DNA of 64,000 bases from NCBI GenBank assembly GCA_965214605.1, contig OZ243961.1, forward strand, positions 640,001 through 704,000, written 5' to 3'. Position 1 is the stretch's first letter. Each line of letters opens with the position of its first letter. The position numbers were made by a program, and so were the translations under genes. Under the pieces are notes generated by a model. The model worked only from the letters and a program-made list of their open reading frames with translations. It did no database searches and was not told the origin of the DNA. Source of the stretch: an uncultured Candidatus Binatia bacterium. Lineage in GTDB: Bacteria; Desulfobacterota; Binatia; Bin18. Positions 1,385-17,756 of this stretch are shown piece after piece.

Positions 1385-1413
1385 TTGGCAGACGCGTCCA
1401 GGATGCGTATGGT
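1385..1413 (+). promoter_or_regulatory. Putative sigma70 promoter for the Zn-ribbon/DHH genes
   Basis: TTGGCA-N17-TATGGT. Confidence 0.45.
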
Positions 1414-1447
1414 AGCGGAATCGCATTCGGACATTAGGAGGAACCCC

Positions 1448-1642: not shown

Positions 1643-1675
1643 GTCGCGTCCGGCGGACCGTGACCAGTCACCAGT

Positions 1676-2743: not shown

Positions 2744-2751
2744 ACAGCTGG

Positions 2752-3546
2752 CTAGTCCTTTTTTCGAGCTTGAGCGAGCTCATACGCATAATCAATAACC
2801 AGCGGCGCATGATCGGAAAAGCGCTGAGCTTTATAAATCCACGTCTGGCGGGCTTTGGCCGCCAGGCCTGGAGTAGCAACCTGGTAGTCCAGCCGCCAGC
2901 CAACGTTTTTAGCCCAGGCCTGGCCCCGGTTTGACCACCAGGTGTATTGCTCGGCGTCTCGATTCAGGCGGCGAAAAACATCGACAAAGCCGATCTCATC
3001 AAAGACGCGTGTCAGCCACTTCCGTTCCTGGGGCAAAAAACCGGAATTTTTTTGATTCGAGCGCCAGTTTTTCAGATCCTTTTGGGTATGGGCAATATTC
3101 CAATCACCGCACACCACCACATGTCTGCGGCTAGCCCGGAGGGCCTGCAGTTCAGGCAGGAGGCGATCCATAAACGCGTACTTGACCGCCTGGCGCTGCT
3201 CTGAACTCGAACCCGACGGCAGATACAGAGAGATAACACTCAACCGGCCAAAATCAGCCTGTAGATACCGCCCCTCAGCATCAATATCGGTATGACCCCA
3301 GCCATACCGCAGCGTGTCTGGAGCGCGCCGGGCATACACCCCAACCCCGGAATAGCCACGCTTTTCGGCTGGATGGAAAAATCCGGTCAGGCCCGTGGGC
3401 TGGCGCAGCGCCGAAGGCAGGTCGCCCTCCTGAGCTTTCAACTCTTGGACACACACCAGATCGGGTCGTTGGTCTGCCACCCAGACAAAAAATCCTTTAC
3501 GGGCGGCCGAGCGGATACCGTTGAGATTGCACGAGATGATACGCAT
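2752..3546 (-). CDS. xth: Exodeoxyribonuclease III / AP endonuclease
   Basis: NLNGIRS, QELK, GYSGV, GDWNIAH, GWRLDY, SDHAP catalytic motifs. Confidence 0.95.
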   Translation of the reverse strand: MRIISCNLNGIRSAARKGFFVWVADQRPDLVCVQELKAQEGDLPSALRQPTGLTGFFHPAEKRGYSGVGVYARRAPDTLRYGWGHTDIDAEGRYLQADFGRLSVISLYLPSGSSSEQRQAVKYAFMDRLLPELQALRASRRHVVVCGDWNIAHTQKDLKNWRSNQKNSGFLPQERKWLTRVFDEIGFVDVFRRLNRDAEQYTWWSNRGQAWAKNVGWRLDYQVATPGLAAKARQTWIYKAQRFSDHAPLVIDYAYELAQARKKD

Positions 3547-3564
3547 GCGTCCTTTTTGAACAGT

Positions 3565-3813
3565 CTATTGGGGGAGGGTGTGACGTGGCCGGGGCACTGG
3601 ATCAAAGCCGCCAGGACAAAAGGGGTGACACCGGCCGAGCCGTTTGAGGATCAAGACTAGGGCTCGAAAAAAAGGGTGGAGTTGAAAACAATCAATGGCG
3701 TACTGGGAACAGCTGGGCGCAAAACGGCAGCCTGCCTGCGGACCGCAAGTAGCGACCAAGAGTGGCGAAACAAGGCGCTGGTAGCCGCGCAGTAGACCGA
3801 TCAAGCTCCGCAT
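3565..3813 (-). CDS. yidD: Membrane protein insertion efficiency factor
   Basis: YQRLVSP...[11 protein letters not shown]...[13 protein letters not shown]. Confidence 0.9.
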
Positions 3814-3938
3814 CCCAGCTGAGCGCAGCCAGACCTGGATTCTGGACGCCGCTGCAGTGCTATACCCCATACGCCCAGACTCTACCCTAACCGCTGAAAA
3901 AAAGACACCGCCGCCCGACCCGCTCCGGACGCCTAATC

Positions 3939-3967
3939 TTGACAGTCTCAGTTACGCTGGATAAGAG
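3939..3967 (+). promoter_or_regulatory. Putative sigma70 promoter of the DyP gene
   Basis: TTGACA-N17-TAAGAG; GGAGGAGG RBS follows. Confidence 0.4.
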
Positions 3968-3999
3968 GAGAGTAGCAAATTCTAGAGGAGGAGGATCAT

Positions 4000-4923
4000 A
4001 TGGCAACACCTCAACCCGCCGTACTGAACAGGGATATGGGCAAGCATCAGTGGTATGTCCATCTAAGCCGTTTGGACGGCGCAGATCTGGGAGTGATCAA
4101 GTCTGCCGTCTCGCAACTGCGCAAAGACTGCGATGCTCAGGGGATCAATCTTACCATCGGCGTTGGTCCCAGCCTATTGCCAGACCTGACCAACGACGTC
4201 CCCAACGATTTTCAGCCCTACGAAACCTTTAGGTCCATTGATGGGAGCGGTAAAGAGGCCAAGGGAACCCAGGAAGAGCTGCTGTTCTGGCTCAATCACG
4301 ACGACAAAGACAAGGTTTGGAAGACACAGTTCGATGCCCGTGAGGCGCTCAAGGGACACATGCGGGTCGCTCGCGAGACCATGACTTTTATCTATGGGAA
4401 CTCCTTTGATATGACAGGTTTCAAGGACGGAACCGGCAACCCTGAGCCTGAGCGCGACGTCGAGGTTGCCATTGTTCCGGACGGAGAGCCCGGAGCTGGG
4501 GGAAGCTTTATCATCGCCCAGCGCTGGATTCATGACCTTGAGGCGTTTAATCTGCTGCCGGTCGATGAACAGGAAAAAGTCTTTGGTCGGACCAAAGGGG
4601 AGGAGTCAGCCAAGCTCTCCCCTCTCCCTCCCACCTCTCATCTGGCTCATCACGAGTTACGTGAGGGCAGAACAGGCGATGAGAGCACGCCTAAACGTGA
4701 CGAAATCTCCCGCCGTTCGACGCCGTATGCCTTCCACGATGGCACCGTGGGGCTCTATTTTATGGCCTTCTGCAAATCGCAAGCCCCGCTGCGCGAGCGC
4801 ATGCGAGCCATGTACGGCATGGACGGTCAGGTGCGTGACCGACTGACGTCGTACAGCAATCCGGCCTCTGGTTCGTTCTATTTTGCCCCATCGGTCGAGA
4901 CGCTTGATCAAGCGCTGTCGTAA
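4000..4923 (+). CDS. Dyp-type heme peroxidase (YfeX-like, cytoplasmic)
   Basis: GFKDG (GxxDG), QRWIHDL, GRTK, SHL (proximal His), RRSTPY, FYFAPS; no Tat signal. Confidence 0.92.
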   Translation: MATPQPAVLNRDMGKHQWYVHLSRLDGADLGVIKSAVSQLRKDCDAQGINLTIGVGPSLLPDLTNDVPNDFQPYETFRSIDGSGKEAKGTQEELLFWLNHDDKDKVWKTQFDAREALKGHMRVARETMTFIYGNSFDMTGFKDGTGNPEPERDVEVAIVPDGEPGAGGSFIIAQRWIHDLEAFNLLPVDEQEKVFGRTKGEESAKLSPLPPTSHLAHHELREGRTGDESTPKRDEISRRSTPYAFHDGTVGLYFMAFCKSQAPLRERMRAMYGMDGQVRDRLTSYSNPASGSFYFAPSVETLDQALS

Positions 4924-4945
4924 CGCGACGGTTCGCCAAGAGTCC

Positions 4946-4982
4946 AAACGGGGCATCTCTCGCCGGATGTCCCGTTTCTTTT
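4946..4982 (+). terminator. Intrinsic terminator after DyP, between convergent genes
   Basis: AAACGGGGCATC-loop-GATGTCCCGTTT followed by CTTTT. Confidence 0.75.
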
Positions 4983-4985
4983 GGC

Positions 4986-5588
4986 TCAGAGTTTTTTCAG
5001 GGTAAACACTGCCGTGGTGGCACGTAAATTTTTATAGCGGAAATTTTTCAAGCGACGGGTATGAGCCAAGTAGCGCTCCTCTGTAATGTGGACTCCCAAC
5101 TGCTGACAAAAGTCGCCAAAATCGGCCACCGTAAAGGCCTGCCAGCGGGGCGCTTCGTACCAGCGTTCGGGCAGGTCAGAGGCCTGCGGGATACGACCGG
5201 TCAACAGCAGCGCAAGTCGACACCGCCAGTAGCCCCAGTTGGGAAAACTGACAATCGCCTGTTTGCCGACCCGCAGCATCTCCTGCACGATCATGGCCGG
5301 ATCGTCGAGAAAGGGCAACGTCTGGCTCAGGATCACGTAGTCAAAGCTGGCCTCAGGATAATCGGCCAGACCCTCTTCGAGGTTGCCCTGGCGCACACTT
5401 AAACCGCGTCGCACACACGTCAGAATCCCGCGCTCACCCAACTCAATGCCGCGTCCAGTTACCAGTTTCTCCCGGACGAGATACTGCAGCAGAGCGCCGT
5501 CTCCACACCCCAGGTCAAGAACACGGACCTGGGAAGGGACCAGATCGGCAATGACGAGGAGATCGGAGCGCAGGCTGATAGAACTCAC
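4986..5588 (-). CDS. metW: Methionine biosynthesis protein MetW
   Basis: RVLDLGCGDG, FDYVILSQTL, IVSFPNWGYWRCR; directly downstream of metX. Confidence 0.92.
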   Translation of the reverse strand: MSSISLRSDLLVIADLVPSQVRVLDLGCGDGALLQYLVREKLVTGRGIELGERGILTCVRRGLSVRQGNLEEGLADYPEASFDYVILSQTLPFLDDPAMIVQEMLRVGKQAIVSFPNWGYWRCRLALLLTGRIPQASDLPERWYEAPRWQAFTVADFGDFCQQLGVHITEERYLAHTRRLKNFRYKNLRATTAVFTLKKL

Positions 5589-5645
5589 AACTTGGCTTGG
5601 AGACAGAGGGTGAGGCGCAGCGGGGTAGAGATTGCCGCTACCCGC

Positions 5646-6854
5646 TCATGCAGCTACCTCGGTCTTGCGCCCCTTTTGATCACGGGGCGGCGATGGGTCG
5701 GGGACAGCAATGGCCTCAGCGTGGACCAAACGGTCAAGAAAACTGCCGAGCAAATTGGTCATAGTCTCGACTTCGAGCAGAAACGCGTCGTGACCCCACG
5801 AGCTCTGGACATCCAGATAGGTGACATCGGCGCCGGCGGCGGTCAGCGCGCTCACCAGCTCTCTGCTGTGATAGCTCGGATACAACCAGTCGCTCGTAAA
5901 ACTGACGACCAGATATTTCAGCGCGGCGGAGTTGGCAAAGGCGGCGGCCAAGGCGCCGGTTGTCGCGCTCAGGTCAAAATAGTCCATCGCCTTGGTGATA
6001 TACAGATAACTGTTGGCGTCAAACCGACGGGTAAAATTGTTCCCTTTATATTTTAAATAGCTCTCGACCTGAAACTCGGTCCGAAATTCATAGCCGTAGC
6101 GGACGCGGTCTTGCAAACGGCGGCCAAACTTCTGCTGCATGGACTCTTCGCTCAAGTAGGTAATGTGACCGACCATCCGGGCAACGGCCAGCCCGGCGTC
6201 AGGCTTGATCTCCGCCCCATAATAGTCGCCATTGTTCCAGGCTGGATCGGCATAAATCGCCTGGCGACCGACCTCGCTCAGAGCGATCAGCATCGGACTG
6301 TGGTGGGCGGTAGTCGCGATCGGTATGGCTGCCCGGACGCGTTGGGGGTAGGTGGCCGCCCACTCCAGGGCCTGCATGCCACCCATTGAGCCACCGGCCA
6401 CACACAGCAGCTTGTCAATCTCTAGGTGATCTAGCAGCCGGACCTGGGCTCGGACCATATCACCTATTGTCACCACTGGGAAATGCATGCCGTACGGCGT
6501 CTGGGTGGCCGGGTCAAGATGAGTTGGACCGGTTGAGCCATAACAGCCGCCTAGGACATTGCTACAAATAACAAAGAACCGATCGGTATCAAAAGCTTTG
6601 CCCGGTCCAATACAATCGTCCCACCAGCCCAGACGTATATCCTCAGGATCATGGTATCCGGCGGCGTGGGCACTTCCGCTCAACGCATGAGTCACCAGAA
6701 TGGCGTTTGAGCGATCCGCATTCAGCCGGCCATAGGTTTCATAGCTAAGGGTTACGGGGCTCAGTGTCGCGCCACTGTCAAGCGGAAACGGGCGCTGCTG
6801 GGCGAAGGTGAGTTCTTGCGGCTGAACAATGCCGACGGAGCCGGGTCTGCTCAT
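5646..6854 (-). CDS. metX: Homoserine O-acyl(acetyl)transferase
   Basis: HALSG, GGSMGGMQ nucleophile, FDANSYL, GHDAFL. Confidence 0.95.
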   Translation of the reverse strand: MSRPGSVGIVQPQELTFAQQRPFPLDSGATLSPVTLSYETYGRLNADRSNAILVTHALSGSAHAAGYHDPEDIRLGWWDDCIGPGKAFDTDRFFVICSNVLGGCYGSTGPTHLDPATQTPYGMHFPVVTIGDMVRAQVRLLDHLEIDKLLCVAGGSMGGMQALEWAATYPQRVRAAIPIATTAHHSPMLIALSEVGRQAIYADPAWNNGDYYGAEIKPDAGLAVARMVGHITYLSEESMQQKFGRRLQDRVRYGYEFRTEFQVESYLKYKGNNFTRRFDANSYLYITKAMDYFDLSATTGALAAAFANSAALKYLVVSFTSDWLYPSYHSRELVSALTAAGADVTYLDVQSSWGHDAFLLEVETMTNLLGSFLDRLVHAEAIAVPDPSPPRDQKGRKTEVAA

Positions 6855-6926
6855 GGGTCGTCTCAGTCAGGGGCACACGGGCCAAAAAAGCGTCAAGAGG
6901 AAGGCAAGCGGGGACCGGGGCTTATT

Positions 6927-8225
6927 CTAGCCAGCGGCTGCCTTGAGTGCCTGATCTAGGTCCCACACAATATCATCAATGTCTTCTAACCCGACACTCA
7001 GTCGGACGAAATCTGGTGACACACCAGCACTCACCAACTCATCTTCGTTGAGCTGACTGTGAGTCGTGCTGGCCGGGTGAATAGCCAGACTCTTGGCATC
7101 TCCGACATTGGCCACATGGCTGTGGAGTTTCAGGCTATTGATGAATTTCTCGCCCGTTTCGCGTCCCCCCTTGATCAGAAAACCCAGGATCGATCCGGGG
7201 CCTTTGGGTAGATATTTTTCGGCTTTGGCATGATCCGGATGCTTGGTCAGGCCGGGAAAGGCGACCGAGTTGACGCCGGGGTGGGCGTCAAGAAACTCGG
7301 CCACCTGTTGGGCATTTTCTACATGGCGCTGCATGCGCAGACTCAGCGTCTCGACCCCCAGCAGGGTGGTAAAGCTATCAAACGGAGCCTGACAGCCGCC
7401 CACATCGCGTAGGATCTGGACCCGAGACTTGAGAATCATGGCCGGGGCGCCCAGGTCGGCGTAGACCAGACCATGATAGGACGGGTCTGGCTCGGTAAAA
7501 TTGGGGAAGCGTCCACTGCGCCAGTCAAAATTGCCGCCGTCAACAATCACCCCGCCAATAGCCGTGCCGTGCCCACTCAGAAACTTGGTTGTGCTGTGAG
7601 TGACAATATGCGCCCCCCACTCAAATGGTCGGCACAGGTAGGGCGTGGCAAAGGTATTATCGATCATGATCGGAATATTATAGGCTCGGGAGACCTCGGA
7701 CACCTCGTCGAACGGAAAGACTGTAATGTCCGGATTGCCCAGAGTTTCACCGTATAAAATCCTGGTGTTGGGCCGCACGGCAGCGGCAAATTCTTCGGAG
7801 TTGGTTGGATCAACAAAGGTCGTCGTAATCCCCAGGCGCGGAAAGGTGTGGGCGAACTGATTATACGTCCCGCCATAGAGGCGACTGCTGCTCACAATAT
7901 GGTCGCCCTGACCACACAGAGCCATAATGGCTATCATCTGGGCCGCGTGGCCACTGCTGGCGACCAAGGCTCCAACCCCACCTTCGAGCGAGGCTAAACG
8001 CTGTTCCAAGACATCGTTGGTCGGATTCATAATACGGGTATAAATATTACCAAGCTCTTTGAGCGCAAACAGGCTGGCCGCGTGTTGGGTGTTTTTGAAC
8101 TGATAGCTGGTCGTGTGATAAATGGGGACCGCCCGACTGCCGGTGGTGGGATCGGGCTCTTGGCCAGCGTGCAGTTGACGAGTGTTAAATCCGTATTGGC
8201 GATCCTGTATTTCATTGGCACTCAT
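6927..8225 (-). CDS. metY: O-acetylhomoserine aminocarboxypropyltransferase (sulfhydrylase)
   Basis: LHAGQ, YTRIMNPT, HSTTKF (PLP Lys), ANVGDAKSLAIHPASTTHSQL. Confidence 0.95.
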   Translation of the reverse strand: MSANEIQDRQYGFNTRQLHAGQEPDPTTGSRAVPIYHTTSYQFKNTQHAASLFALKELGNIYTRIMNPTNDVLEQRLASLEGGVGALVASSGHAAQMIAIMALCGQGDHIVSSSRLYGGTYNQFAHTFPRLGITTTFVDPTNSEEFAAAVRPNTRILYGETLGNPDITVFPFDEVSEVSRAYNIPIMIDNTFATPYLCRPFEWGAHIVTHSTTKFLSGHGTAIGGVIVDGGNFDWRSGRFPNFTEPDPSYHGLVYADLGAPAMILKSRVQILRDVGGCQAPFDSFTTLLGVETLSLRMQRHVENAQQVAEFLDAHPGVNSVAFPGLTKHPDHAKAEKYLPKGPGSILGFLIKGGRETGEKFINSLKLHSHVANVGDAKSLAIHPASTTHSQLNEDELVSAGVSPDFVRLSVGLEDIDDIVWDLDQALKAAAG

Positions 8226-8295
8226 GCACTCTTCTCCCTCTGTGGTGTGCAGTTCGTCTTCGCCTCCCTTGCCAGCGGCGACCAAAAGCTTCCAG

Positions 8296-8325
8296 AGTAT
8301 AGCGGGAGAAGACTGGGAGTAGCAA
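8296..8325 (-). promoter_or_regulatory. Putative sigma70 promoter of metYXW
   Basis: Minus strand TTGCTA-N18-TATACT. Confidence 0.55.
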
Positions 8326-8355
8326 GAGCAAGCCCCAACTCGACCGGGAGACGCG

Positions 8356-8384
8356 TTGCGGGACCTCTCACAGCTGGCTATGAT
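8356..8384 (+). promoter_or_regulatory. Putative sigma70 promoter of the dsrE-like/TusA-MetE operon
   Basis: TTGCGG-N17-TATGAT; back-to-back with the metY promoter. Confidence 0.5.
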
Positions 8385-8434
8385 GTCCTCTATCCGTCAC
8401 TCAGGGCGGGCTGCAGCGTATAAGGAGGATTCCC

Positions 8435-8797
8435 ATGCCAGGCAAATTCTGTGTTTCCCTTACCTCCGCCAAAGACAACCCAGATAAAGCCACCGTCGCC
8501 TTTGTGATTGCCAATGCCTCGGTTGGCTCCGATCAGGACACTCTGGTATTCTTGAGTACCGAAGGGGTTCGTCTGGCGGTCAACGGCTATGCCGATGACA
8601 TCCATGAAGACGGCTTCCTCCCCCTCAAAGAGCTGATGAGCAACTATGCCGAGGCGGGGGGGACGATCTATGTGTGCTCGCCGTGTTTTAAGAGGCGGGG
8701 TCTGGACGAAAACAATCTTGTCCCAGGAGCAACGATCGTCGGGGGGGCTAAGCTGGTCGAGTATCTGGTTGACGGCACGCCGTGTGTGTCGTACTGA
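8435..8797 (+). CDS. DsrE/DsrF-like family protein with CxxC
   Basis: AAGGAGG RBS; VFLSTEGVRL, GGTIYVCSPCFKRRG, GATIVGG, C-terminal Y. Confidence 0.85.
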   Translation: MPGKFCVSLTSAKDNPDKATVAFVIANASVGSDQDTLVFLSTEGVRLAVNGYADDIHEDGFLPLKELMSNYAEAGGTIYVCSPCFKRRGLDENNLVPGATIVGGAKLVEYLVDGTPCVSY

Positions 8798-8875
8798 TCT
8801 CTCAAGACCCAGGATGTTTTCCCACTTATCGCCCCCAGGTCAGAGACAGGAGTGAGGGCGCAGGAGTTGCAGGGG

Positions 8876-10462
8876 ATGGATGAGCAGACACCGCGGCAGC
8901 ATCCGTACCAACCACACGACAGTTTTGACGGCGGTGACCTCGACTGTGGCAACGGCCTGCTGCTGCTGATCCGCAAATATATCGATCCGCTGACCCCCGG
9001 TCAGCTGCTGGAGATTCTGTCAACCGAATCCTCTGTCGTTGAAGACCTGCCGGCCTGGTGTCGGCTGACCAAAAACGAGCTGGTGTCCCATATTCGGCAC
9101 GGCAAGCAGCATAGTTTTCTGGTCTCTAAGGGACCGTATCACAAGCCGGTCGACCAGGCGCCGGCTCCTCCGCACGTTCAGAAGAGTCGGCGCAAAAAAA
9201 CGCGGCTACCTCGCAGAGAGAGGGAACCAGCACCAATAACCCAGCCGATCAAAGAGGTTGTAATTCCCGGCGAGCTACCGGCCCCCCAACCCGCTCCTGC
9301 CGTTCCCCCCCTGTCGGTTATGAACATCGGCAGCTGGCCGCGTCCGCCGTGGTTGCTTCGGGCGCTGAACGACCGTATCGAAGGCCGGATGTCGGACGAA
9401 GAATTTTCTCAGACTGCCGAAGACGCGGTTCGTCTGGCAGTTGCCGCCCAGCAGCGAGCTGGGGTCCAGGTGTTGACCGACGGGGAGCAGCGCCGCGACA
9501 ACTACGCCAGCTTTGTGGGTGGCCTGCTCGACAACTGTCAGCTCATCCCCATCACTGACCTCCTGTCCTATGTTGATGATCCACACGAATTTGAGCGGGA
9601 GTTACGCGCCCTGGATGTCCCAGCCGGCAAAGTTCGCCATCCGGCCGTGTTTGGTCCCTTAGGTCGCAGCCGCCCGCTCACCGTTCACGAGGCCGACTTC
9701 TTGCGAAGCCTAACCCAGGCGCCAATTAAAATTGCCCTCCCTGGCCCATATCTGTTGACCCGGACGATGTGGATGGAGTGCATTTCAGACCGGGCCTACG
9801 ACAACCGCGAAGACCTAGCTACCGACATTGTTCGGGTTCTACGCGAGGAAATACACTCCCTGCTGGCCGCCGGTGTCTCGTTAGTCCAGCTTGATGAGCC
9901 GGTCCTGACCGAGGTCGTCTTCAGCGGCACGATCAACAACCGCACCTTCATGTGTGGCGCTCTAGGAGAGAAACGCGCACCTGATGCTGAACTGGCATTT
10001 GCCGAGTCACTTATTCAACGGGCCATCGCCGGCCTGCCCCAAGAACGCCTGGCCCTCCACATCTGTCGTGGGAATTGGACCCCGGACGAGAGCGTTGCCC
10101 TGGCTGGTGACTATGTCCCCCTCATCCCGCTTTTGCAAAAGTTACGGGTGGGGACGTTTTTCCTTGAAATGTGCACCCCCCGGGCTGGCGATATGGATGT
10201 CCTCAAAGAGGTTCCAGCCGAGGCGCGTCTTGGTATTGGTGTGGTGAATCAGAAGCACCAAGTGACGGAAAGTGTTGAAGAGGTCCTGACCAGGGCCGAG
10301 CGTGCGGTTAAACTGTTTGGGCCGGAACGGGTACTGTTCAACCCGGACTGCGGTTTTGCCACCTTTGCCGATAACCCGATCGTGTCAGCGCAACAGGCCG
10401 AGCAAAAGCTAGCGGTGATGGTCAAAGCCGCGGCCCTGCTGCAGGAGCGTTATCCGCTCTAG
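8876..10462 (+). CDS. Fusion of a TusA/SirA-like sulfur-carrier domain and a cobalamin-independent methionine synthase catalytic (core MetE) domain; alternative start 8852
   Basis: N-terminus FDGGDLDCG...PGQLLEILST...DLPAWCR; Pro/Arg-rich linker; IGSWPRP, TDGEQRR, PGPY, QLDEP; Zn ligands HICRGN, LE, NPDCGF. Confidence 0.88.
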   Translation: MDEQTPRQHPYQPHDSFDGGDLDCGNGLLLLIRKYIDPLTPGQLLEILSTESSVVEDLPAWCRLTKNELVSHIRHGKQHSFLVSKGPYHKPVDQAPAPPHVQKSRRKKTRLPRREREPAPITQPIKEVVIPGELPAPQPAPAVPPLSVMNIGSWPRPPWLLRALNDRIEGRMSDEEFSQTAEDAVRLAVAAQQRAGVQVLTDGEQRRDNYASFVGGLLDNCQLIPITDLLSYVDDPHEFERELRALDVPAGKVRHPAVFGPLGRSRPLTVHEADFLRSLTQAPIKIALPGPYLLTRTMWMECISDRAYDNREDLATDIVRVLREEIHSLLAAGVSLVQLDEPVLTEVVFSGTINNRTFMCGALGEKRAPDAELAFAESLIQRAIAGLPQERLALHICRGNWTPDESVALAGDYVPLIPLLQKLRVGTFFLEMCTPRAGDMDVLKEVPAEARLGIGVVNQKHQVTESVEEVLTRAERAVKLFGPERVLFNPDCGFATFADNPIVSAQQAEQKLAVMVKAAALLQERYPL

Positions 10463-10588
10463 GTCCGTTGGTCGCGGCCGAGCAATCTCGACGGGGGCGG
10501 CCCAGCCTTTCTTGGGGAGCCGCTTCGTGCTATACGCTTCTCAAGAACACCCGACAACAGACGGCTCTGCTCGTCAGGAGGCGAAAAC

Positions 10589-11074
10589 ATGACGCAGCTA
10601 CGCGTAGAGGGCGAGGTCTCCACCCCGCACGATTTTAGCTTTAACGACCTCACTCGGCTGCCCGGCCAAGTCGCCGATGTCGGGCAGTTTGTCCCCGGCC
10701 GGGACGGCAGTGGCGTTCGCCTGCGATCCCTGCTCGATTGGGTTGGCCCCAAAAATAGCGTTCAGTATATTACGCTAGAGTCCAGCGACGGGAAGTTTTC
10801 GGCCAGCCTGCCGGTCACCGCCGTACAAAACGCCATCGTAGCCTATCGGCTAGGCGATGAACCGCTGCCGGCCCAAAAAGGCGGGCCGTTTCGCTTTTTT
10901 ATTCCCCATGCTCAGGAGTGCACGGTTGGCGAGGTTGACGCCTGCGCCAACGTCAAATTTCTTGGTCGTCTCCACCTAAGCCATGAACGCGGTCGAGATG
11001 TCCGTCCAACCAGCCCAGCTTTGCACCAGGCCCACCACGAACGACCGGGGCATGAACATTTGCCCAAAGAATAG
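10589..11074 (+). CDS. Stand-alone small sulfite-oxidase-fold (Oxidored_molyb-like) protein
   Basis: AGGAGG RBS; LRVEGEV, GVRLRSLL, S.DG.F.ASLP, EPLP...GGPFR, CANVKFL; His-rich tail. Confidence 0.75.
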   Translation: MTQLRVEGEVSTPHDFSFNDLTRLPGQVADVGQFVPGRDGSGVRLRSLLDWVGPKNSVQYITLESSDGKFSASLPVTAVQNAIVAYRLGDEPLPAQKGGPFRFFIPHAQECTVGEVDACANVKFLGRLHLSHERGRDVRPTSPALHQAHHERPGHEHLPKE

Positions 11075-11077
11075 TCG

Positions 11078-11527
11078 ATGGATTCGTCTACACCACCATG
11101 TAGGACAAAGGCTGGCGTTGTTGCCGCCCGAACCAGAGCCGATGCTGAGCTTGAGGTGTTGCTGATCACCAGTCGCAAACATCCTCAGTCCTGGATTTTT
11201 CCGGTCGGAACCGTCGAGGCGGGAGAGAGCCTAGAGCAGGCAGCGGCCCGGGAGTGTGCCGAGGAGAGCGGCTATACGGTTGAGGTCGGTCCTCTGTTGG
11301 CCGAACTTGAGTTACCGGATGAGGCTGACAGGACTGTCCGACGGTTTATTTTCTTTGCCGCCAACATCACCGGCGAGTACGCGACGTATGAAATCGACCG
11401 CCAGCGGCGCTGGGTCCCACTCTCCGAGGTGGGAGAGTCTGTGGCTGCGGTATTCCGCCCGGTTGCCCGAGCAGCGACGGAAAACTGGACGCTGGATAGA
11501 CCGCCCACAGCCGTTCAAAAGACGTAG
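11078..11527 (+). CDS. NUDIX hydrolase (Ap6A/DIPP-like subfamily)
   Basis: VLLITSRK, WIFP, Nudix box GTVEAGESLEQAAARECAEESG. Confidence 0.9.
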   Translation: MDSSTPPCRTKAGVVAARTRADAELEVLLITSRKHPQSWIFPVGTVEAGESLEQAAARECAEESGYTVEVGPLLAELELPDEADRTVRRFIFFAANITGEYATYEIDRQRRWVPLSEVGESVAAVFRPVARAATENWTLDRPPTAVQKT

Positions 11528-11560
11528 ACTCAAGTCCGCTTTTGTCCATGTGACGATCGC

Positions 11561-13261
11561 CTACTCCTGTGTCACCCGCAGGACTTCGGCCACCGTTGTC
11601 AAGCCCTGAGCCACCGTTCGCCAGCCATCGTCCCGCAGGACGCGCATATTTTGGGTGGCGATGGCACGATTCTTAATCACGTCAGCCGAGGCGCGTTTGA
11701 GGATCAGCTGGCGTATGTCTTCATCGACCGTCATCAGCTCAAAGATACCCCGGCGACCGCGATAGCCGGTGTTGGCGCATGCTTCACAGCCGACCGCGTC
11801 ATACACCAATGCCGGGACAAGAGAGGTGCCATTGTCAGCACCGTTTACCCTGAGTCTCTGTCCGCCGAGCTCTACTCCGCCGCTTTGATCGGGACGGCGG
11901 CACTGGAGACATAATGAGCGGACTAAGCGCTGGGCCATCACCCCCAGCAACGAGGAGGCCAACAGATAGTCTTCAACTCCCATCTCCAGGAGTCGAGAAA
12001 CTGCACCGGCAGCATCGTTCGTATGGAGGGTCGAGAACACCAAGTGACCAGTCAGTGCGGACTGAATCGCAATCTCGGCGGTCTCATAGTCCCGAATCTC
12101 ACCGACCATAATAACATCCGGGTCTTGACGCACGATCGAACGCAGCCCAGAGGCAAAGCTGAGGCCGATTTGGGGTTTGACGTGGACCTGATTCACACCA
12201 CTTAGCTGATATTCGACCGGATCTTCGATGGTAATAATCTTTTTGTCGGGTGAGTTAATTTTGTCTAGGGCACCATACAGCGTGGTCGTCTTTCCACTCC
12301 CGGTCGGACCTGTCACCAGGATCATGCCGTAGGGCTTGGTAATCATGGTCTCGAACAGCCCCAGGGTATCTTCTGGGAACCCGAGGGATTCGAGGCTCAG
12401 CGTAATACTTGAGCGATCAAGAATACGTAAGACAACACTTTCTCCGTACAGCGTCGGCAGAGTTGAGACCCGCAGGTCCACCTCGCGGCCTAACATACGT
12501 AGCTTGATCCGCCCGTCCTGGGGCAATCGACGTTCGGCAATATTCAGCTTCGCCATCAGCTTGACGCGTGAGATGAGGGCGGCCTGCAACCGGCGCGGAG
12601 GCGCCTCAATATCGTGCAGGATACCGTCGATGCGGTAGCGGATACGGAGTTCCTTCTCAAACGGCTCAATGTGAATATCTGAGGCTCGCTGCTCCATCGC
12701 CCGAGAGATCATGACGTTGACCAAGCGAATGACCGGAGCCTCACTGGCCAGGTCACGCAGATGCTCAACGTCGTCCTGATCCTCTTCGAGATACCCATCC
12801 TCTCCGGCCTCATTCTCCAGACCGTTGGCCCTCTCGTCCCCTTCGGCGTAGTAGGTGGTTAAGGCGTCCAACAGCTCGCGTTCACGCGCCAAACGACGTA
12901 CCACCCGCAAACCGGTTGCCTTCTCCAGGGCTTCGACTGCGTCTACATCCCCAGGATCGGCCATAGCGGCTATGAGCTGGCCATCCTGAACGCTCAGCGG
13001 ACAGATACGCGCCTGACGAAAATACGCGGGATTGATAGAGTTCAGATCGGGAGGAGCTTGCGGAAAATCACCTACCCCGATCAGCGGGGTTTGGTAGTAG
13101 TTGGCCAGGACGGGTAGCAAATCATCCTCAGAGATAAAGCCGAGTTCAAGCAGCAGGCGCTCTAGTGGTTCACCGCGTTCTTGCTGGACCAACTGAACTC
13201 GGCGCAGATCGTCGGTCGACAGCTTGCCGGTCGACAGCAGCATTTTATCAAGCCGACTCAT
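11561..13261 (-). CDS. gspE: Type II secretion / pilus assembly ATPase (GspE/PulE family)
   Basis: T2SSE N-domain, ASDIHIEP, GPTGSGKTTT, EDPVE, RQDPDVIMVGEIRD, CxxC...CxxC. Confidence 0.9.
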   Translation of the reverse strand: MSRLDKMLLSTGKLSTDDLRRVQLVQQERGEPLERLLLELGFISEDDLLPVLANYYQTPLIGVGDFPQAPPDLNSINPAYFRQARICPLSVQDGQLIAAMADPGDVDAVEALEKATGLRVVRRLARERELLDALTTYYAEGDERANGLENEAGEDGYLEEDQDDVEHLRDLASEAPVIRLVNVMISRAMEQRASDIHIEPFEKELRIRYRIDGILHDIEAPPRRLQAALISRVKLMAKLNIAERRLPQDGRIKLRMLGREVDLRVSTLPTLYGESVVLRILDRSSITLSLESLGFPEDTLGLFETMITKPYGMILVTGPTGSGKTTTLYGALDKINSPDKKIITIEDPVEYQLSGVNQVHVKPQIGLSFASGLRSIVRQDPDVIMVGEIRDYETAEIAIQSALTGHLVFSTLHTNDAAGAVSRLLEMGVEDYLLASSLLGVMAQRLVRSLCLQCRRPDQSGGVELGGQRLRVNGADNGTSLVPALVYDAVGCEACANTGYRGRRGIFELMTVDEDIRQLILKRASADVIKNRAIATQNMRVLRDDGWRTVAQGLTTVAEVLRVTQE

Positions 13262-13273
13262 GGGCTCCCTATC

Positions 13274-13984
13274 CTAGTAAATCAGCGACCCGAGGCGCTC
13301 CCAACGCACCCACCGGTCAGCCCCGTCCCATGACCAGTAAATCAGAAAGGCTTTGCCTTTGACATCCCGCGCGTCGACAAAGCCCCAAAACCGGCTGTCA
13401 TGGCTGTGGTCACGGTTATCGCCCATCACAAAGAGCTGGTTGGCCGGGACCCGAATCGGCCCTACATTATCGCGCGGTCCTGGCCGTTCCTGGCCAGCCT
13501 CGGCAAACGTGGCGTAGGGATCGTCGGCTGCCTGACCGTTGATAAAGAGTCTTTTATGACGGATCTCAACCGTATCCCCGCCAATTGCCACCACCCGCTT
13601 AATGAAGTCTTTGCTATTATCCTTGGGATAGACAAAGACAATCACGTCACCGCGCCGGGGTTGACTCCACTGGACGATGGGCAGCTCGATTGGATAGGGG
13701 AGGCGCAGACCGTACTGAAACTTGTTGACTAAGATGTGATCGCCGACCTGGAGGGTCGTCAGCATTGAGCCTGAGGGAATTTTAAAGGCTTGAACAATAA
13801 AGCTACGGATGAACAGGGCTAGCAGCAGGGCGACCAAGAGGGCTTCGGTGTATTCCCGAATAACAGATTTTTGCCTGCGCTTAACCGATCTGGGAGTTGC
13901 CTTGCCTCCGGCAGTCGGGGTGACTGACTCAAGGGCGGCTTGTACGGACAGTTTGTTCTTGGCCATGACCCGTCTACTGTCCAC
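13274..13984 (-). CDS. lepB: Signal peptidase I
   Basis: IPSGSM, IKRV, GDNRDHSHDSRFWG; follows lepA. Confidence 0.95.
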   Translation of the reverse strand: MDSRRVMAKNKLSVQAALESVTPTAGGKATPRSVKRRQKSVIREYTEALLVALLLALFIRSFIVQAFKIPSGSMLTTLQVGDHILVNKFQYGLRLPYPIELPIVQWSQPRRGDVIVFVYPKDNSKDFIKRVVAIGGDTVEIRHKRLFINGQAADDPYATFAEAGQERPGPRDNVGPIRVPANQLFVMGDNRDHSHDSRFWGFVDARDVKGKAFLIYWSWDGADRWVRWERLGSLIY

Positions 13985-14035
13985 GGCGCCGACTGTTCAC
14001 AAGAGGTGGAGGATCTCTTCTTGATGAGGTGGCCA

Positions 14036-15847
14036 TCAGCGTTCACCTTTTTCCCGAACCCGTAGCAGGGCGAGAAAAGCGTCCTGCGGAATCTCAACCC
14101 GTCCAACTTGTTTCATGCGCCGTTTCCCCTCTTTTTGCTTTTCTAGCAGTTTTCGCTTACGCGTCATATCCCCTCCGTAGCACTTGGCGGTGACATTTTT
14201 GCGTAGCGCTTTGACGCTTTCACGGGCAATCACTTTATTGCCAATAGCCGCTTGGACTGCCACCTCGAACATCTGACGCGGGATCAGCTGGCGCATTTTT
14301 TGGACCAGTTCGCGGCCCCGACTATAGGCTTGATCACGGTGGACAATCAACGAGAGGGCATCGACAATGTCGTTGTTGATACGCACGTCAAGCCTGACCA
14401 AATCGGCCGGCCGGAGGTCGAGCAGCTCATAGTCGAACGACGCGTAGCCGCGAGTGATCGACTTGAGGCGATCATGGAAGTCAACCACAACTTCGTTGAG
14501 CGGCAGTTCGTATAACACTATGGCACGCTGGACGCCCGGATATTTCAGCTCGCGCTGGACGCCACGCCGTTCCTGGCAGAGCTGGAGAACGTTGCCGAGA
14601 TACTCGCTCGGGACATGGATGGTGGCCAGAATGAACGGCTCTTCAATCGCCTCAATCTCCTGGACCGGTGGCAGCAGAGCCGGATTATCGACTAGGAGCG
14701 ATTCGCCGGTCGGTTTCCGCACGCGATACTCAACGGTCGGTGTCGTGGTAATGAGATCCAGACCAAACTCTCGCTCTATACGCTCCTGGACAATCTCCAT
14801 GTGCAGCAGGCCTAAAAAGCCGCACCGGAAGCCAAAACCGAGCGCCAAAGAACTCTCTTTTTCATAGCTCAAGGAGGAATCGTTCAGCTGGAGTTTCTCC
14901 ATAGCGTCGCGCAGCGCGTCGTACTGGTGAGATTCGACCGGGTAGAGGCCGCTAAACACCATGGGGTTAACCTCTTTAAAGCCGGGTAATGGCTGCTGCG
15001 TCGGCCGCTCAGCGTCGGTAATCGTATCCCCGACCAGAGCCTCGGTCACTGTCTTAATGTTGGCCATGACAAAGCCGACCTCACCGGGACCAAGCTCAGA
15101 CACGGCTCGTGGCCGAGGGGCAAAAACGCCGACCTGGCCCACTTCGTAGACCTTGCCGGTTGACACAAACTGGATGCGCATCCCCGCGCGCAGCACCCCG
15201 TCAAAGACGCGGACCTGTACAACCGCGCCCTGGTAGGGGTCAAACCAGCTATCAAACAGAAGGGCGCTGAGCGGCAGCTGAACGTCTCCCTGGGGAGCGG
15301 GGACCGTCCGAACAATCCCTTCTAGCACCTCAAGAATCCCGCGTCCGTGTTTGGCACTGGCTAAGACGGCCTCGCTGCCGTCCAAACCGATGACATCCTC
15401 TAATTCGGCCCGCACCCGTTTGGGATCGGCGCCGGGGAGATCTATTTTGTTAATAACTGGCAGAATTTCCAGCGAGTGGTCCAGGGCTAAATAGGTGTTG
15501 GCTAGGGTTTGGGCTTCTACGCCCTGGGCGGCGTCAACAACTAGGATCGCGCCCTCACACGCCGACAAACTACGCGAAACTTCGTAGGAAAAGTCGACAT
15601 GGCCGGGAGTATCAATTAAATTCAAACAGTAGGTCTTACCGTCCTGGGCCTGGTAGCGGAGGCGCACCGTCCGAGCCTTAATCGTAATCCCCCGCTCTTG
15701 CTCCAGATCCATAGTATCCAGAAACTGGGTCGCCTCTTCACGTTCGCTGAGCGATCCCGAATACGACAGCAGCTTGTCGGCCAGCGTCGATTTGCCATGA
15801 TCGATATGGGCAACGATGCTAAAGTTGCGAATCAGGCTGCTATCCAT
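14036..15847 (-). CDS. lepA: Elongation factor 4
   Basis: [44 protein letters not shown]. Confidence 0.98.
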
Positions 15848-15856
15848 GGAGTAATG

Positions 15857-16783
15857 CTATCCATCCCGTCGGTCTCGAAAGAAGGCCACCGTCTGTGCCA
15901 ATCCGTCGGCGATCGCCACCCGTGGGCGCCAGCCCAATATCTGCTCGGCTCGGTCCCCGGCCAAGACACTCCGGCGCTGCTCGCCAGCTTGGACTGGCCC
16001 GTGTTGTTCAGCGACGTCTGCTCTGGTCAGGTGGCACAGCCGCTGAAACAGCGCGTTCACGGTAGTCTCTCGTCCGCTACCAATATTCAGCACCCCCGTA
16101 TAGTCCGTCCACAGAGCTGCCACATTCGCCCGCGCCACGTCGTGGACAAACACATAGTCGCGCGTCTGCTCGCCGTCGCCATGAATCACCGGCTGTTTTC
16201 CAGCCAACATGCGCTGGCTGAAAATCGCCACTACCCCGGCTTCGCCATACGGGTCTTGACGCGGACCGTAGATATTGGCGTAGCGTAACGCCATATACGG
16301 AAGCCCGTACTCGGTATGATAGAAGGACAAATAGTGCTCTCCGCTCAGCTTGCTCACGCCATATGGACTAATCGGCCGGGTGGGATGAGTCTCATCGGCC
16401 GGAAAAATCTGCTGCTCACCATAGACCGTCCCGCCTGAGGAGGCAAAGATGATCTTACCCGCTCCGGCTTGGCGGGCTCCTTCGAGGACGTTCAGAAGTC
16501 CGCAGATATTCACCCGCGCATCAAACAGTGGATCGGCCACCGAACGGCGGACATCAATCTGTGCGGCATGGTGGTTTACGACCTCGATTTTCTCTTCAAC
16601 AATCAGCCGCCTCACGTCCGGATCTTGAATTGCGGCCCGGACAAAACGCGCTTGCGTGTGCAGATTCTCACGCTTGCCGGTCGATAAGTCATCGACCACA
16701 ATAACCTCATGACCGGCTGCAATATAGGCGTCCACAACATGGGAACCGATAAATCCCGCTCCCCCGGTGACCAACACTCGCAT
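15857..16783 (-). CDS. NAD-dependent epimerase (UDP-glucose 4-epimerase-like)
   Basis: TGGAGFIGSH, SSGG, YGVSK, NIYGPRQ. Confidence 0.9.
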   Translation of the reverse strand: MRVLVTGGAGFIGSHVVDAYIAAGHEVIVVDDLSTGKRENLHTQARFVRAAIQDPDVRRLIVEEKIEVVNHHAAQIDVRRSVADPLFDARVNICGLLNVLEGARQAGAGKIIFASSGGTVYGEQQIFPADETHPTRPISPYGVSKLSGEHYLSFYHTEYGLPYMALRYANIYGPRQDPYGEAGVVAIFSQRMLAGKQPVIHGDGEQTRDYVFVHDVARANVAALWTDYTGVLNIGSGRETTVNALFQRLCHLTRADVAEQHGPVQAGEQRRSVLAGDRAEQILGWRPRVAIADGLAQTVAFFRDRRDG

Positions 16784-16807
16784 ACCTGATTCTCCTATCG
16801 GACCCGT

Positions 16808-17749
16808 CTATTCGTATTCGAGCTTGTCCCGAAAATAGGCAATGGTTTGGCTGAGTCCTTCTTGGAGGGATACCTGCGGCTCCCACCTCAGCACCCGCTG
16901 TGCCAGGCTAATATCCGGCTGGCGGACCTGAGGATCATCAACCGGCAGCGGCTGAAAGGTGATCTGACTCCGGCTGCCGGTCAGGTCGATAACCAACTTG
17001 GCAAAGTCTAGCACGGACATCTCTTGAGGATTCCCGAGATTGACCGGGTCAGTATAATCAGAATGCAGCAGCCGACAGATCCCCTCGACCAGATCGGTCA
17101 CAAAGCAAAAGCTGCGGGTTTGGCTGCCATCGCCATACACGGTCAGGTCCTCATCGCACAGAGCTTGGCAGATGAAATTAGGCACCACTCGGCCGTCTCC
17201 GAACCGCATCCGCGGTCCATAGGTATTAAAGATGCGCCCAATCCGCGTCTCAAGGCCGTGGCTGCGATGGTAGGCCATCACTAGTGCTTCAGCAAAGCGT
17301 TTGGCCTCATCATACACCCCACGCGGACCGATGGGATTGACGTTGCCCCAGTAGACCTCTTTTTGCGGATGGACGAGCGGGTCGCCGTAGACCTCTGAGG
17401 TTGAGGCCAGGAGGAGGCGGGCACCTTTTTCTTTCGCCAGACCTAGCGCCTTATGGGTACCGAGCGAGCCGACTTTGAGGGTTTGAATTGGCAGCTCAAG
17501 GTAATCAATCGGACTCGCCGGGGAGGCAAAGTGGAGAATCGAGTCCAGCCGGCCCTTGACATACATATACGTCGTAACATCCTGGGGAATGAAGGAAAAG
17601 CGCGCGTCTGAAAAGAGATGGCTAATATTCTCGGCGCTGCCGGTCAGCAGATTATCGACACAGACAACCTCGTGCCCCTCGGCCAGGAAGCGCTCGCACA
17701 AGTGCGACCCGATAAAGCCCCCCCCCCCCGTTACTAAGATACGTGCCAT
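16808..17749 (-). CDS. uxs: UDP-glucuronate decarboxylase (UDP-xylose synthase)
   Basis: [53 protein letters not shown]. Confidence 0.92.
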
Positions 17750-17756
17750 TCCTGCC

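What the first reader, a model, noticed from the sequence alone, without database searches (positions are those of the whole stretch)
8435..11074. Candidate sulfur-relay system: DsrE, a TusA::core-MetE fusion and a stand-alone sulfite-oxidase-fold protein, divergent from metYXW
Seen: a DsrE-like CxxC protein, a TusA-like domain fused to a single-barrel MetE-type Zn enzyme, and a small Oxidored_molyb-like protein. The cluster starts 210 bp from the divergent metY-metX-metW operon. Known: TusA and DsrE proteins pass Cys-persulfide sulfur to each other, as in TusA-TusBCD and the TusA/DsrE relays of sulfur oxidisers. Core MetE homologues (MesA-D, epoxyalkane:CoM transferase) use Zn to activate a thiol for alkylation without folate. 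MetY can use sulfide or methanethiol with O-acetylhomoserine. Inference: protein-bound sulfane sulfur is channelled to a Zn alkyl-transfer site. The result could be a new folate-independent methionine synthase class, or an enzyme that makes or uses methyl-sulfur for MetY. I know of no characterised pathway with this combination.
Basis: partly seen in the sequence, partly recalled or inferred. Interest (0 to 1): 0.85.

Follow-up and report, generated by a model that had tools for sequence, protein, structure and literature searches.

The report
Sulfur-carrier-linked MetE-like zinc enzyme operon
A small, very conserved operon joins cysteine-based sulfur-carrier proteins (DsrE, TusA) to a single-barrel relative of methionine synthase; it occurs in hundreds of soil and water bacteria, nobody seems to have described it, and it probably handles the sulfur of homocysteine in an unknown way.

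Summary
Only two belong together. The DsrE gene lies beside the TusA::core-MetE fusion in 70 of 80 genome loci from many phyla. A stand-alone TusA is added in 62 of 80. The sulfite-oxidase-like gene is adjacent only in the window's own genus. metYXW is adjacent only in its own family.

The catalytic domain is closest to MesD (PDB 3RPD). It keeps the zinc ligands and the homocysteine-binding Ser/Glu/Asp. It has no MesX, no folate barrel and no riboswitch. It sits in genomes that nearly all have MetH.

A sister clade without TusA always travels with an OsmC-like protein and a tandem rhodanese. That is independent support for a link to persulfide carriers.

My best reading (about 0.4) is a sulfide-free route that puts sulfane or thiosulfate sulfur on homocysteine at the zinc site. 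A fifth folate-independent methionine synthase family is the main rival (0.25). A selenium link was tested and failed its control. I found no paper on this.

The parts
8356..8384 (+). Promoter-like element of the DsrE-fusion operon: TTGCGG, 17 nt spacer, TATGAT
   Evidence: Read from the sequence. The block GCTATGAT is invariant in the alignment of 7 Binatia intergenic regions. Function as a promoter is inferred.
8435..8797 (+). DsrE-family protein, 120 aa, with invariant C81-S-P-C84; ribosome-binding site AAGGAGG at 8422-8428
   Evidence: PF02635 scores 54.3 bits. It is the only PF02635 gene in the genome. It lies beside the fusion in 70 of 80 loci at 64-87% identity. Cys81 and Cys84 are present in 71 of 71 copies.
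8852..10462 (+). TusA::core-MetE fusion (536 aa from GTG 8852; probably 528 aa from ATG 8876). TusA domain about residues 15-97, linker 98-130, catalytic barrel about 131-536
   Evidence: PF01206 and PF01717 both match. In the 120-sequence alignment these residues are invariant: C32, S161, E212, D348, C310, C368, H403, C405, E439, C500. The best solved relative is MesD 3RPD. The AlphaFold2 model has pLDDT 84.3 and pTM 0.78, with residues 102-116 disordered.
10589..11074 (+). Small stand-alone Oxidored_molyb-like protein, 161 aa; a neighbour, not part of the conserved module
   Evidence: PF00174 scores 59 bits, profile positions 72-162 only. It belongs to a real family of proteins of about 159 aa: 184 hits, the 120 listed mostly 152-188 aa. 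It is adjacent to the fusion only in the own genus, 3 of 3 genomes there and 3 of 17 in the class.
11078..11527 (+). Nudix hydrolase starting 4 bp after the previous stop; travels with the sulfite-oxidase-like gene in the own genus
   Evidence: PF00293 scores 63 bits. It is adjacent in L093-L095 only.
4986..8285 (-). metY-metX-metW operon (O-acetylhomoserine sulfhydrylase, homoserine O-acetyltransferase, MetW), divergent neighbour
   Evidence: TIGR01326 scores 654.6 bits, NF001209 526.9 and TIGR02081 217.3, all over their cut-offs. It is adjacent to the module in 6 of 80 loci. It is adjacent in 11 of 14 loci of the own family.

Best explanation
**The unit.** It is a compact operon: DsrE (CxxC) plus a TusA domain fused to a single-barrel, MesD-related MetE-type zinc enzyme. 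Outside Binatia a second, free TusA precedes it. In some Burkholderiales and a Rokubacterium a PhnCDE-type ABC importer is inserted. The sulfite-oxidase-like gene and metYXW are lineage-specific neighbours.

**Shown.**
- The catalytic domain keeps the His-x-Cys / Glu / Cys zinc site.
- It keeps the Ser/Glu/Asp triad that holds the amino-acid end of homocysteine or methionine in MetE and MesD.
- The carrier cysteines are invariant.
- The sister clade of the enzyme pairs with a rhodanese and an OsmC-like protein instead.

**Inferred mechanism.**
1. A sulfur species (persulfide or thiosulfonate) sits on Cys32 of the TusA domain, loaded through the free TusA and DsrE.
2. It meets a homocysteine-type ligand at the zinc site.
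3. The enzyme makes or releases zinc-bound homocysteine from a carrier-S-S-homocysteine or S-sulfo-homocysteine intermediate.
4. The two-cysteine partner (DsrE CxxC, or OsmC in the sister clade) resolves the remaining disulfide or thiosulfonate.

The net effect is that sulfane or thiosulfate sulfur enters homocysteine without free sulfide. On this reading it is S-S / C-S chemistry, not methyl transfer.
For: **Module**
- DsrE is adjacent in 70 of 80 loci and a free TusA in 62 of 80.
- Of the 10 loci without DsrE, 6 have under 450 nt of contig upstream of the fusion. In 2 more (L018, L055) the contig begins within the transporter genes. L078 has 5.8 kb upstream without DsrE. L061 lacks it within 1.1 kb.
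- Flanks beyond the core are unrelated housekeeping genes.

**Catalytic site**
- In 120 sequences S161, E212, D348, H403, C405, E439 and C500 are invariant.
- They align with the corresponding residues of 3RPD and T. maritima MetE.
- Price et al. name these as the homocysteine binders (passages read).
- Fold: 3RPD TM-score 0.82 normalised to the target.

**Independent second case**
- The unfused sister clade is 41-44% identical and shares the clade-specific motifs.
- It has an OsmC-like gene next to it in 73 of 80 metagenome loci, a tandem CRxGxR rhodanese in 64 of 80, and TusA or DsrE in 0 of 80.
- The 7 loci without OsmC all have 259 nt or less downstream.

**No methyl donor and no need for one**
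- No corrinoid, MesX, folate or SAM-methyltransferase gene recurs in the operon.
- MetH is present in 34 of 36 carrier genomes.

**Link to homocysteine synthesis**
- The operon is divergent from metYXW in the own family.

**Chemistry known from others**
- DsrE3A and TusA carry thiosulfonate (abstract of PMC4175335, seen in the listing).
Against: - No experiment exists. The substrate is inferred from three conserved residues.
- Zinc-dependent C-S bond formation with a persulfide at a MetE site has no precedent that I know of.
- The genomes already have MetY. Own genome; other genomes were not surveyed for it.
- The metYXW adjacency comes from one lineage only.
- Both TusA copies lack the CPXP motif that defines characterised TusA. 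They read CG[NS]G in the fusion and GCG in the free copy.
- The importer found in Burkholderiales is a phosphonate/phosphite-type system by NCBIfam. It is not a known sulfur importer.
- In one Planctomycetota assembly (G030) the fusion is the only methionine-synthase-like gene found. That favours the methionine-synthase rival, although the completeness of that assembly is unknown.
Confidence: 0.4

Rival explanations
1. It is a fifth family of folate- and B12-independent methionine synthases. The MesD-like barrel methylates zinc-bound homocysteine. TusA and DsrE (rhodanese and OsmC in the sister clade) replace MesX as the accessory system that makes or delivers an unknown methyl donor.
For: - The closest solved relative is MesD (95 bits; TM-score 0.82 to the target).
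- The zinc and homocysteine sites are intact.
- MesD also depends on an unexplained partner and co-occurs with MetH in 75% of cases.
- 27 of 37 carrier genomes have no full-length MetE, so a B12-independent enzyme would be useful.
- In G030 no MetH, MetE or other Meth_synt_2 gene was found.
Against: - No conceivable methyl donor or methyl carrier is encoded in either operon type.
- Cysteine thioethers and persulfides are not methyl donors (chemistry, my own knowledge).
- No SAM or B12 riboswitch was found in 28 loci or in window 1-20000.
- 10 of 37 genomes have MetH, MetE and the module together.
- The own genome has MetH, MTHFR and four more core-MetE paralogues.
Confidence: 0.25
2. It serves reactive-sulfur homeostasis. 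The enzyme passes sulfane sulfur between carrier persulfides and homocysteine. It either makes homocysteine persulfide or uses homocysteine to reduce persulfides. This buffers sulfane sulfur or homocysteine under oxidative conditions.
For: - The partners are persulfide carriers together with peroxiredoxin-like proteins: OsmC in 73 of 80 sister loci, and a 1-Cys peroxiredoxin nearby in 12 of 80.
- A Redoxin gene sits upstream in L064.
- The carrier taxa named in the record titles are mostly aerobic soil and freshwater groups (lifestyle is recalled).
Against: - Persulfide exchange between thiols is spontaneous and would hardly need such a conserved zinc barrel (60-87% identity across phyla).
- No persulfide dioxygenase or SQR gene recurs nearby.
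Confidence: 0.15
3. One reading: DsrE, the fusion, the sulfite-oxidase-fold protein and metYXW act as one pathway.
For: The arrangement is conserved in the 3 genomes of the own genus. Sulfite would be a by-product of thiosulfonate chemistry (inference).
Against: - The sulfite-oxidase-like gene is in 3 of 80 loci, and in two of these it lies 7 kb away.
- It lacks the first 71 profile positions of PF00174 and has no cysteine in its first 40 residues.
- metYXW adjacency is limited to one family.
Confidence: 0.05
4. It is a selenium-handling module, with TusA and DsrE as selenium carriers and the barrel binding selenohomocysteine.
For: - selD is over its cut-off in 36 of 37 carrier genomes.
- A tRNA-Sec gene lies 2.7 kb downstream in L057.
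- There are weak hits of the binding protein to a putative selenate-binding family and of OsmC to an OsmC-related selenoprotein family, both far under their cut-offs.
Against: - The control fails. selD is in 90 of 121 Binatia genomes and 192 of 251 Burkholderiales genomes whether or not the module is present.
- Of the 7 module carriers in the Burkholderiales sample, 2 (G260, G292) are not among the selD matches.
Confidence: 0.03

Closest known systems
MesD/MesX core methionine synthase (Price et al. 2021, PMC7857596; PDB 3RPD)
   Same: Single MetE-type barrel without a folate domain. Zinc ligands and the Ser/Glu/Asp homocysteine binders are conserved. It is the best sequence hit among solved structures (95 bits) and ranks second by Foldseek E-value with TM-score 0.82 to the target. 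It is found in bacteria that mostly also have MetH. It depends on a partner of unknown role.
   Different: - Only 25% identity in the Foldseek alignment.
- No MesX: 0 of 37 genomes, though the control for this search was silent.
- The segment after the His-x-Cys reads CRGNW where 3RPD has CYGYG with its Tyr226.
- Clade-specific insertions carry invariant Cys310 and Cys368.
- The partners are sulfur carriers.
Full-length MetE (cobalamin-independent methionine synthase)
   Same: Same catalytic barrel and zinc site.
   Different: No N-terminal folate-binding barrel: PF08267 scores 18.8 bits against a cut-off of 27, over 42 residues. TIGR01371 scores 79.5 bits against a cut-off of 929.95.
TusA / DsrE sulfur relays (TusA-TusBCD, Rhd-TusA-DsrEFH-DsrC, DsrE3A-TusA thiosulfonate transfer, PMC4175335, PMC11094781)
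   Same: The same two protein families are encoded side by side, with conserved carrier cysteines.
   Different: - The acceptor is a MetE-type enzyme rather than tRNA thiolation, DsrC or sHdr.
- The TusA copies read CG[NS]G or GCG instead of CPXP.
- DsrE is a single gene with a CxxC motif, without DsrF or DsrH.
Epoxyalkane:coenzyme M transferase (MetE-family zinc enzyme; recalled, not tested here)
   Same: It is the precedent for a MetE-type zinc site forming a C-S bond to a carbon other than a methyl group.
   Different: Its thiol is coenzyme M, and no carrier proteins are involved. No sequence comparison was made here.

Membership tests
Meth_synt_2 / core-MetE superfamily | Pfam PF01717 match over the gathering score | tested here: met
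   103.3 bits against a cut-off of 21, residues 158-528.
Meth_synt_2 / core-MetE superfamily | Zinc ligands His-x-Cys, Glu, Cys | tested here: met
   H403, C405, E439 and C500 are invariant in 120 sequences. They align with the matching residues of 3RPD. That these columns are the zinc ligands is recalled from the MetE literature.
Meth_synt_2 / core-MetE superfamily | Ser/Glu/Asp that bind the carboxyl and amino groups of homocysteine | tested here: met
   S161, E212 and D348 are invariant. They align with the GS, GE and DEP motifs of 3RPD and T. maritima MetE. The residues are named in PMC7857596.
Full-length MetE (EC 2.1.1.14) | N-terminal folate-binding barrel and equivalog score | tested here: not met
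   PF08267 is under its cut-off. TIGR01371 scores 79.5 bits against 929.95.
MesD | Adjacent MesX (DUF1852, PF08908) | tested here: not met
   No such gene in the neighbourhoods. Found in 0 of 37 genomes, but the control genomes did not ring either.
MesD | High similarity to ACIAD3523 (at least 390 bits in Price et al.) | tested here: inconclusive
   ACIAD3523 was not at hand. Against MesD 3RPD the score is only 95 bits with 25% identity, far from that level.
MesA / MesB / MesC and other NCBIfam 'methionine synthase' equivalogs | Equivalog score over the cut-off | tested here: not met
   The best is PRK04326 at 171.6 bits against a cut-off of 406. All 9 MetE-type models are under their cut-offs.
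TusA | PF01206 match and a cysteine at the active-site position | tested here: met
   33.4 bits against a cut-off of 28.6. C32 is invariant in 120 sequences. It aligns to solved TusA 3LVJ and 1DCJ at E 3.6e-5.
TusA | CPXP active-site motif (PMC11094781) | tested here: not met
   The fusion reads C-G-N/S-G. The free TusA reads G-C-G.
TusA | Binds sulfane sulfur on that cysteine | not testable with these tools
   Needs mass spectrometry of the protein.
DsrE/DsrF family | PF02635 match | tested here: met
   54.3 bits against a cut-off of 22.7.
DsrEFH / TusBCD complex | DsrF and DsrH (TusC, TusB) partner genes | tested here: not met
   There is one PF02635 gene in the whole genome. No DsrF or DsrH-like partner gene recurs next to the DsrE gene; a second DsrE-like gene appears in about 14 of 80 loci only.
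Sulfite oxidase family (for the 161-aa protein) | Complete molybdopterin domain with the Mo-ligand cysteine, and a dimerisation domain | tested here: not met
   PF00174 covers profile positions 72-162 of 169 only. No other domain is found. There is no cysteine in residues 1-40. The position of the Mo-ligand cysteine in the profile is recalled, not checked.

The most novel reading that the evidence does not exclude
A PLP-independent, sulfide-free homocysteine synthase. A MetE-type zinc site forms or liberates the C-S bond of homocysteine using a protein-bound persulfide or thiosulfonate. The sulfur is delivered by TusA (or by rhodanese in the sister clade). The remaining disulfide is resolved by a two-cysteine partner, DsrE CxxC or OsmC. 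This would be a new entry point of sulfur into amino acids in aerobic bacteria.
Probability: 0.2. Interest if true: 0.9.

Novelty: new variant of a known kind. Interest (0 to 1): 0.72.

Why it matters
How core MetE enzymes of aerobes work is an open question. Even for MesD the co-substrate is unknown (PMC7857596).

Here two sister clades of that enzyme type are each tied to cysteine persulfide carriers:
- one clade in at least 554 species genomes;
- the other in at least 520 metagenome stretches.

If the chemistry at the zinc site is sulfur transfer rather than methyl transfer, hundreds of genes now annotated as '5-methyltetrahydropteroyltriglutamate--homocysteine methyltransferase' (names) carry the wrong name. 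A new route of sulfur into homocysteine would then exist.

If it is a methionine synthase after all, it would be a fifth folate-independent family with a new kind of accessory system.

The operon is present in cultured Duganella and Paraburkholderia strains, so it can be tested directly.

Tried and rejected
- **Selenium link.** It looked strong (selD in 36 of 37 genomes). It was rejected after base-rate controls (90 of 121 and 192 of 251; 5 of 7 carriers in the sample).
- **Riboswitches.** None at Rfam gathering scores in 28 loci. None at E up to 0.1 in window 1-20000.
- **Regulator sites.** Recalled MetR, Pho-box and McbR consensus patterns and shared 10-mers were scanned in 25 Burkholderiales upstream regions. 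Nothing beyond two lone half-sites appeared. This was a crude scan.
- **Complex prediction.** TusA domain against the catalytic domain with Zn gave no verdict (score 0.00). This is not evidence either way.
- **Sequencing runs.** No RNA holder is listed.
- **Longer fused forms of the sister enzyme.** Only 3 hits, with no informative domain. This is weak evidence.
- **ESM Atlas.** It returned only the family's own clusters.
- **First ORF clustering.** The greedy longest-ORF clustering was spoiled by antisense shadow ORFs in high-GC DNA. It was replaced by all-ORF clustering and codon-usage scoring.
- **Literature.** Six searches found no paper on a TusA-MetE fusion or on the OsmC-rhodanese-MetE operon. 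Subscription journals are not covered. Supplementary tables of Price et al. could not be opened and might list this clade.
Full report
**What is in the window.**
- A DsrE-family protein lies at 8435-8797.
- A 536-aa protein at 8852-10462 has a TusA domain (residues 37-93) and a Meth_synt_2 barrel (158-528).
- A 161-aa protein at 10589-11074 matches only the last 90 positions of the Oxidored_molyb profile.
- Divergent from them lie metY, metX and metW, each over its NCBIfam cut-off.
- No NCBIfam equivalog for a methionine synthase is reached by the fusion. The best is 171.6 bits against a cut-off of 406.
- The fusion probably starts at the ATG at 8876, which has an AGGAG before it. That gives the 528 aa of the nearest homologues.
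- A TTGCGG-17-TATGAT element lies 51 nt before the DsrE start. Its -10 block is invariant among seven Binatia intergenic regions.

**Which genes belong together.**
The fusion is a large and very conserved family.
- The best 120 database hits are 498-575 aa and 62-87% identical.
- At least 554 species genomes encode it. They include Binatia (closest, 74-78%), Actinomycetota, Planctomycetota, Burkholderiales, Rokubacteria and Acidobacteriota. They also include cultured Duganella, Paraburkholderia and a Burkholderia.

In the 80 loci fetched, local tblastn gave these counts.

| Neighbour of the fusion | Loci |
|---|---|
| DsrE gene directly upstream | 70 of 80 |
| Stand-alone TusA before DsrE | 62 of 80 |
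| Sulfite-oxidase-like gene | 3 of 80 (adjacent once) |
| metYXW | 6 of 80 (all Binatia) |

- Six of the ten loci without DsrE have under 450 nt of contig upstream of the fusion.
- In two more (L018, L055) the contig begins within the transporter genes.
- L078 has 5.8 kb upstream without DsrE.
- L061 is a real exception within 1.1 kb.
- In 11 loci a PhnD-like binding protein gene sits between DsrE and the fusion or just upstream. In 3 more only the permease or ATPase gene is seen.
- The permease and ATPase pass the PhnE and PhnC equivalog cut-offs. The binding protein passes only the phosphate/phosphite/phosphonate subfamily cut-off.
- Everything else in the flanks differs from locus to locus.

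Within the window's class:
- The full-length fusion is in 17 of 121 genomes sampled, and in 13 of 14 of the own family besides the window's genome.
- DsrE is adjacent in 17 of 17.
- metY is adjacent in 11 of 17, all in the own family.
- The sulfite-oxidase-like and Nudix genes are adjacent only in the three genomes of the own genus.
- In a Burkholderiales sample the fusion is in 7 of 251 genomes.

So the conserved unit is DsrE plus (TusA plus) TusA::core-MetE. The rest is local.

**The small sulfite-oxidase-like protein.**
- It is a real family of proteins of about 159 aa: 184 hits, the 120 listed mostly 152-188 aa. It is not a truncation.
- It lacks the first 71 profile positions and has no cysteine in its first 40 residues.
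- I do not count it as part of the system.

**What the catalytic domain is.**
- Among solved structures the best sequence match is 3RPD (95 bits). Price et al. identify 3RPD as MesD of Shewanella bound to zinc and selenomethionine.
- Next come the C-terminal barrels of full-length MetE.
- Foldseek on an AlphaFold2 model (pLDDT 84.3, pTM 0.78) gives the same answer. 3RPD has TM-score 0.82 normalised to the target at 25% identity.
- The columns aligned with the homocysteine binders of 3RPD and MetE are S161, E212 and D348. Those aligned with His-x-Cys, Glu and Cys are H403, C405, E439 and C500. All are invariant in 120 sequences.
- The clade also has its own long, almost invariant insertions with Cys310 and Cys368 invariant and Cys229 nearly so.
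- It is not MesD. Similarity is low, the segment after His-x-Cys differs, and no MesX is found in the operon or in 37 genomes, although the control for that search was silent.

**The carrier proteins.**
- TusA Cys32 is invariant. The second cysteine, C70, is nearly so.
- Both TusA copies read CG[NS]G or GCG, where characterised TusA has CPXP.
- DsrE has an invariant C-S-P-C motif.
- It is the only DsrE-family gene of the genome, so there is no DsrEFH-type complex.

**An independent second case.**
- Five Binatia genomes have an unfused relative, 41-44% identical over residues 146-534. It has the same clade-specific motifs and the same zinc and homocysteine columns.
- Its neighbours are an OsmC-like protein (5 of 5) and a tandem rhodanese with a CRSGPR active site.
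- A metagenome scan with this clade found at least 520 relatives.
- In the 80 loci kept, the OsmC-like gene follows in 73. The 7 others have 259 nt or less downstream.
- The rhodanese is adjacent in 64. TusA or DsrE is adjacent in none.
- Two sister clades thus each carry a one-cysteine persulfide carrier (TusA or rhodanese) and a small cysteine protein (DsrE CxxC or OsmC).
- This is the strongest evidence that sulfur transfer, not a passive fusion, is part of the enzyme's work.

**Is it a methionine synthase?**

*For:*
- The site looks able to bind homocysteine.
- MesD is the nearest relative.
- 27 of 37 carrier genomes have no full-length MetE.
- In one Planctomycetota assembly no other candidate was found. 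Its completeness is unknown.

*Against:*
- MetH is in 34 of 36 carriers and in the own genome.
- One of the two genomes without MetH shows a MetH fragment at a contig end.
- 10 of 37 genomes have MetE as well.
- The own genome also has MTHFR and four further Meth_synt_2 paralogues.
- No riboswitch precedes the operon in 28 loci or in the window.
- Neither operon type encodes anything that could hold or make a methyl group.

**Mechanism proposed.**
- *Shown:* the anatomy above.
- *Inferred:* a persulfide or thiosulfonate on Cys32, loaded through free TusA and DsrE, reacts at the zinc site with a homocysteine-type ligand.
- The simplest schemes that use every conserved part are two.
  - (a) A carrier persulfide attacks an activated homoserine. 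This gives carrier-S-S-homocysteine.
  - (b) S-sulfohomocysteine, made from thiosulfate and O-acetylhomoserine, is de-sulfonated by the carrier cysteine.
- In both, zinc holds the homocysteine thiolate that is released. The two-cysteine partner then clears the carrier.
- DsrE3A and TusA are known thiosulfonate carriers (abstract of PMC4175335, listing).
- A MetE-family enzyme that alkylates a thiol with a non-methyl carbon is known (epoxyalkane:CoM transferase, recalled).
- I give this umbrella reading 0.4, the methionine-synthase reading 0.25, and a role in persulfide homeostasis 0.15.

**A lead that failed.**
- selD was over its cut-off in 36 of 37 carrier genomes.
- But selD is in 90 of 121 Binatia and 192 of 251 Burkholderiales genomes sampled.
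- Two of the 7 carriers in the latter sample lack it.
- So there is no specific link to selenium.

**Limits.**
- Genomes of one lineage are not independent.
- Many carriers are metagenome-assembled genomes of unknown completeness.
- Locus L059 and genome G031, and genome G179, are unpublished records. Each is one item in the larger counts (G031/L059 in the 80-locus and 36- or 37-genome counts, G179 in the 251-genome count), and no claim depends on them.
- The literature library lacks most subscription journals. Supplements were closed.

Noticed in passing
L124-L203 (metagenome loci); L115-L119: A conserved three-gene operon of an unfused core-MetE-like enzyme, an OsmC-like protein and a tandem rhodanese. 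OsmC is present in 73 of 80 loci and rhodanese in 64 of 80. I found no paper on it. It deserves a report of its own.
   Followed up: partly
G000:C1 about 241.9-245.0 kb (L121:5888-8968), outside the window: MTHFR, a bicupin protein and a 341-aa Meth_synt_2 paralogue lie head to tail. A single-barrel MetE next to the enzyme that makes methyl-folate is odd for a supposedly folate-independent type.
   Followed up: no
L008, L009, L012, L013, within about 0.1-6 kb downstream of the fusion: In several Binatia loci a FUR-family regulator, a ZnuA-type binding protein and a CobW/COG0523 GTPase lie near the fusion, which is a zinc enzyme. This may be a Zur-controlled zinc cluster. It may also be coincidence.
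   Followed up: no
G000:C1:1899798-1900724, outside the window: The selD gene of this genome has one in-frame TGA, as do many Binatia selD genes. This is presumably a selenocysteine-containing SelD.
   Followed up: no
L050:4353-4736 and L050:9415-9861: In Duganella alba the operon is flanked by a 127-aa cysteine-rich ORF with no family and by a second, divergent DsrE-like gene. The PhnD-like binding protein there has a twin-arginine-type signal peptide.
   Followed up: no
window 11078-11527: A Nudix hydrolase gene starts 4 bp after the stop of the sulfite-oxidase-like gene. It is kept with that gene in all three genomes of the genus, so they are probably one transcript.
   Followed up: partly
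L057:4819-4908: A tRNA-Sec gene lies 2.7 kb downstream of the fusion in one locus. It was seen once only.
   Followed up: partly
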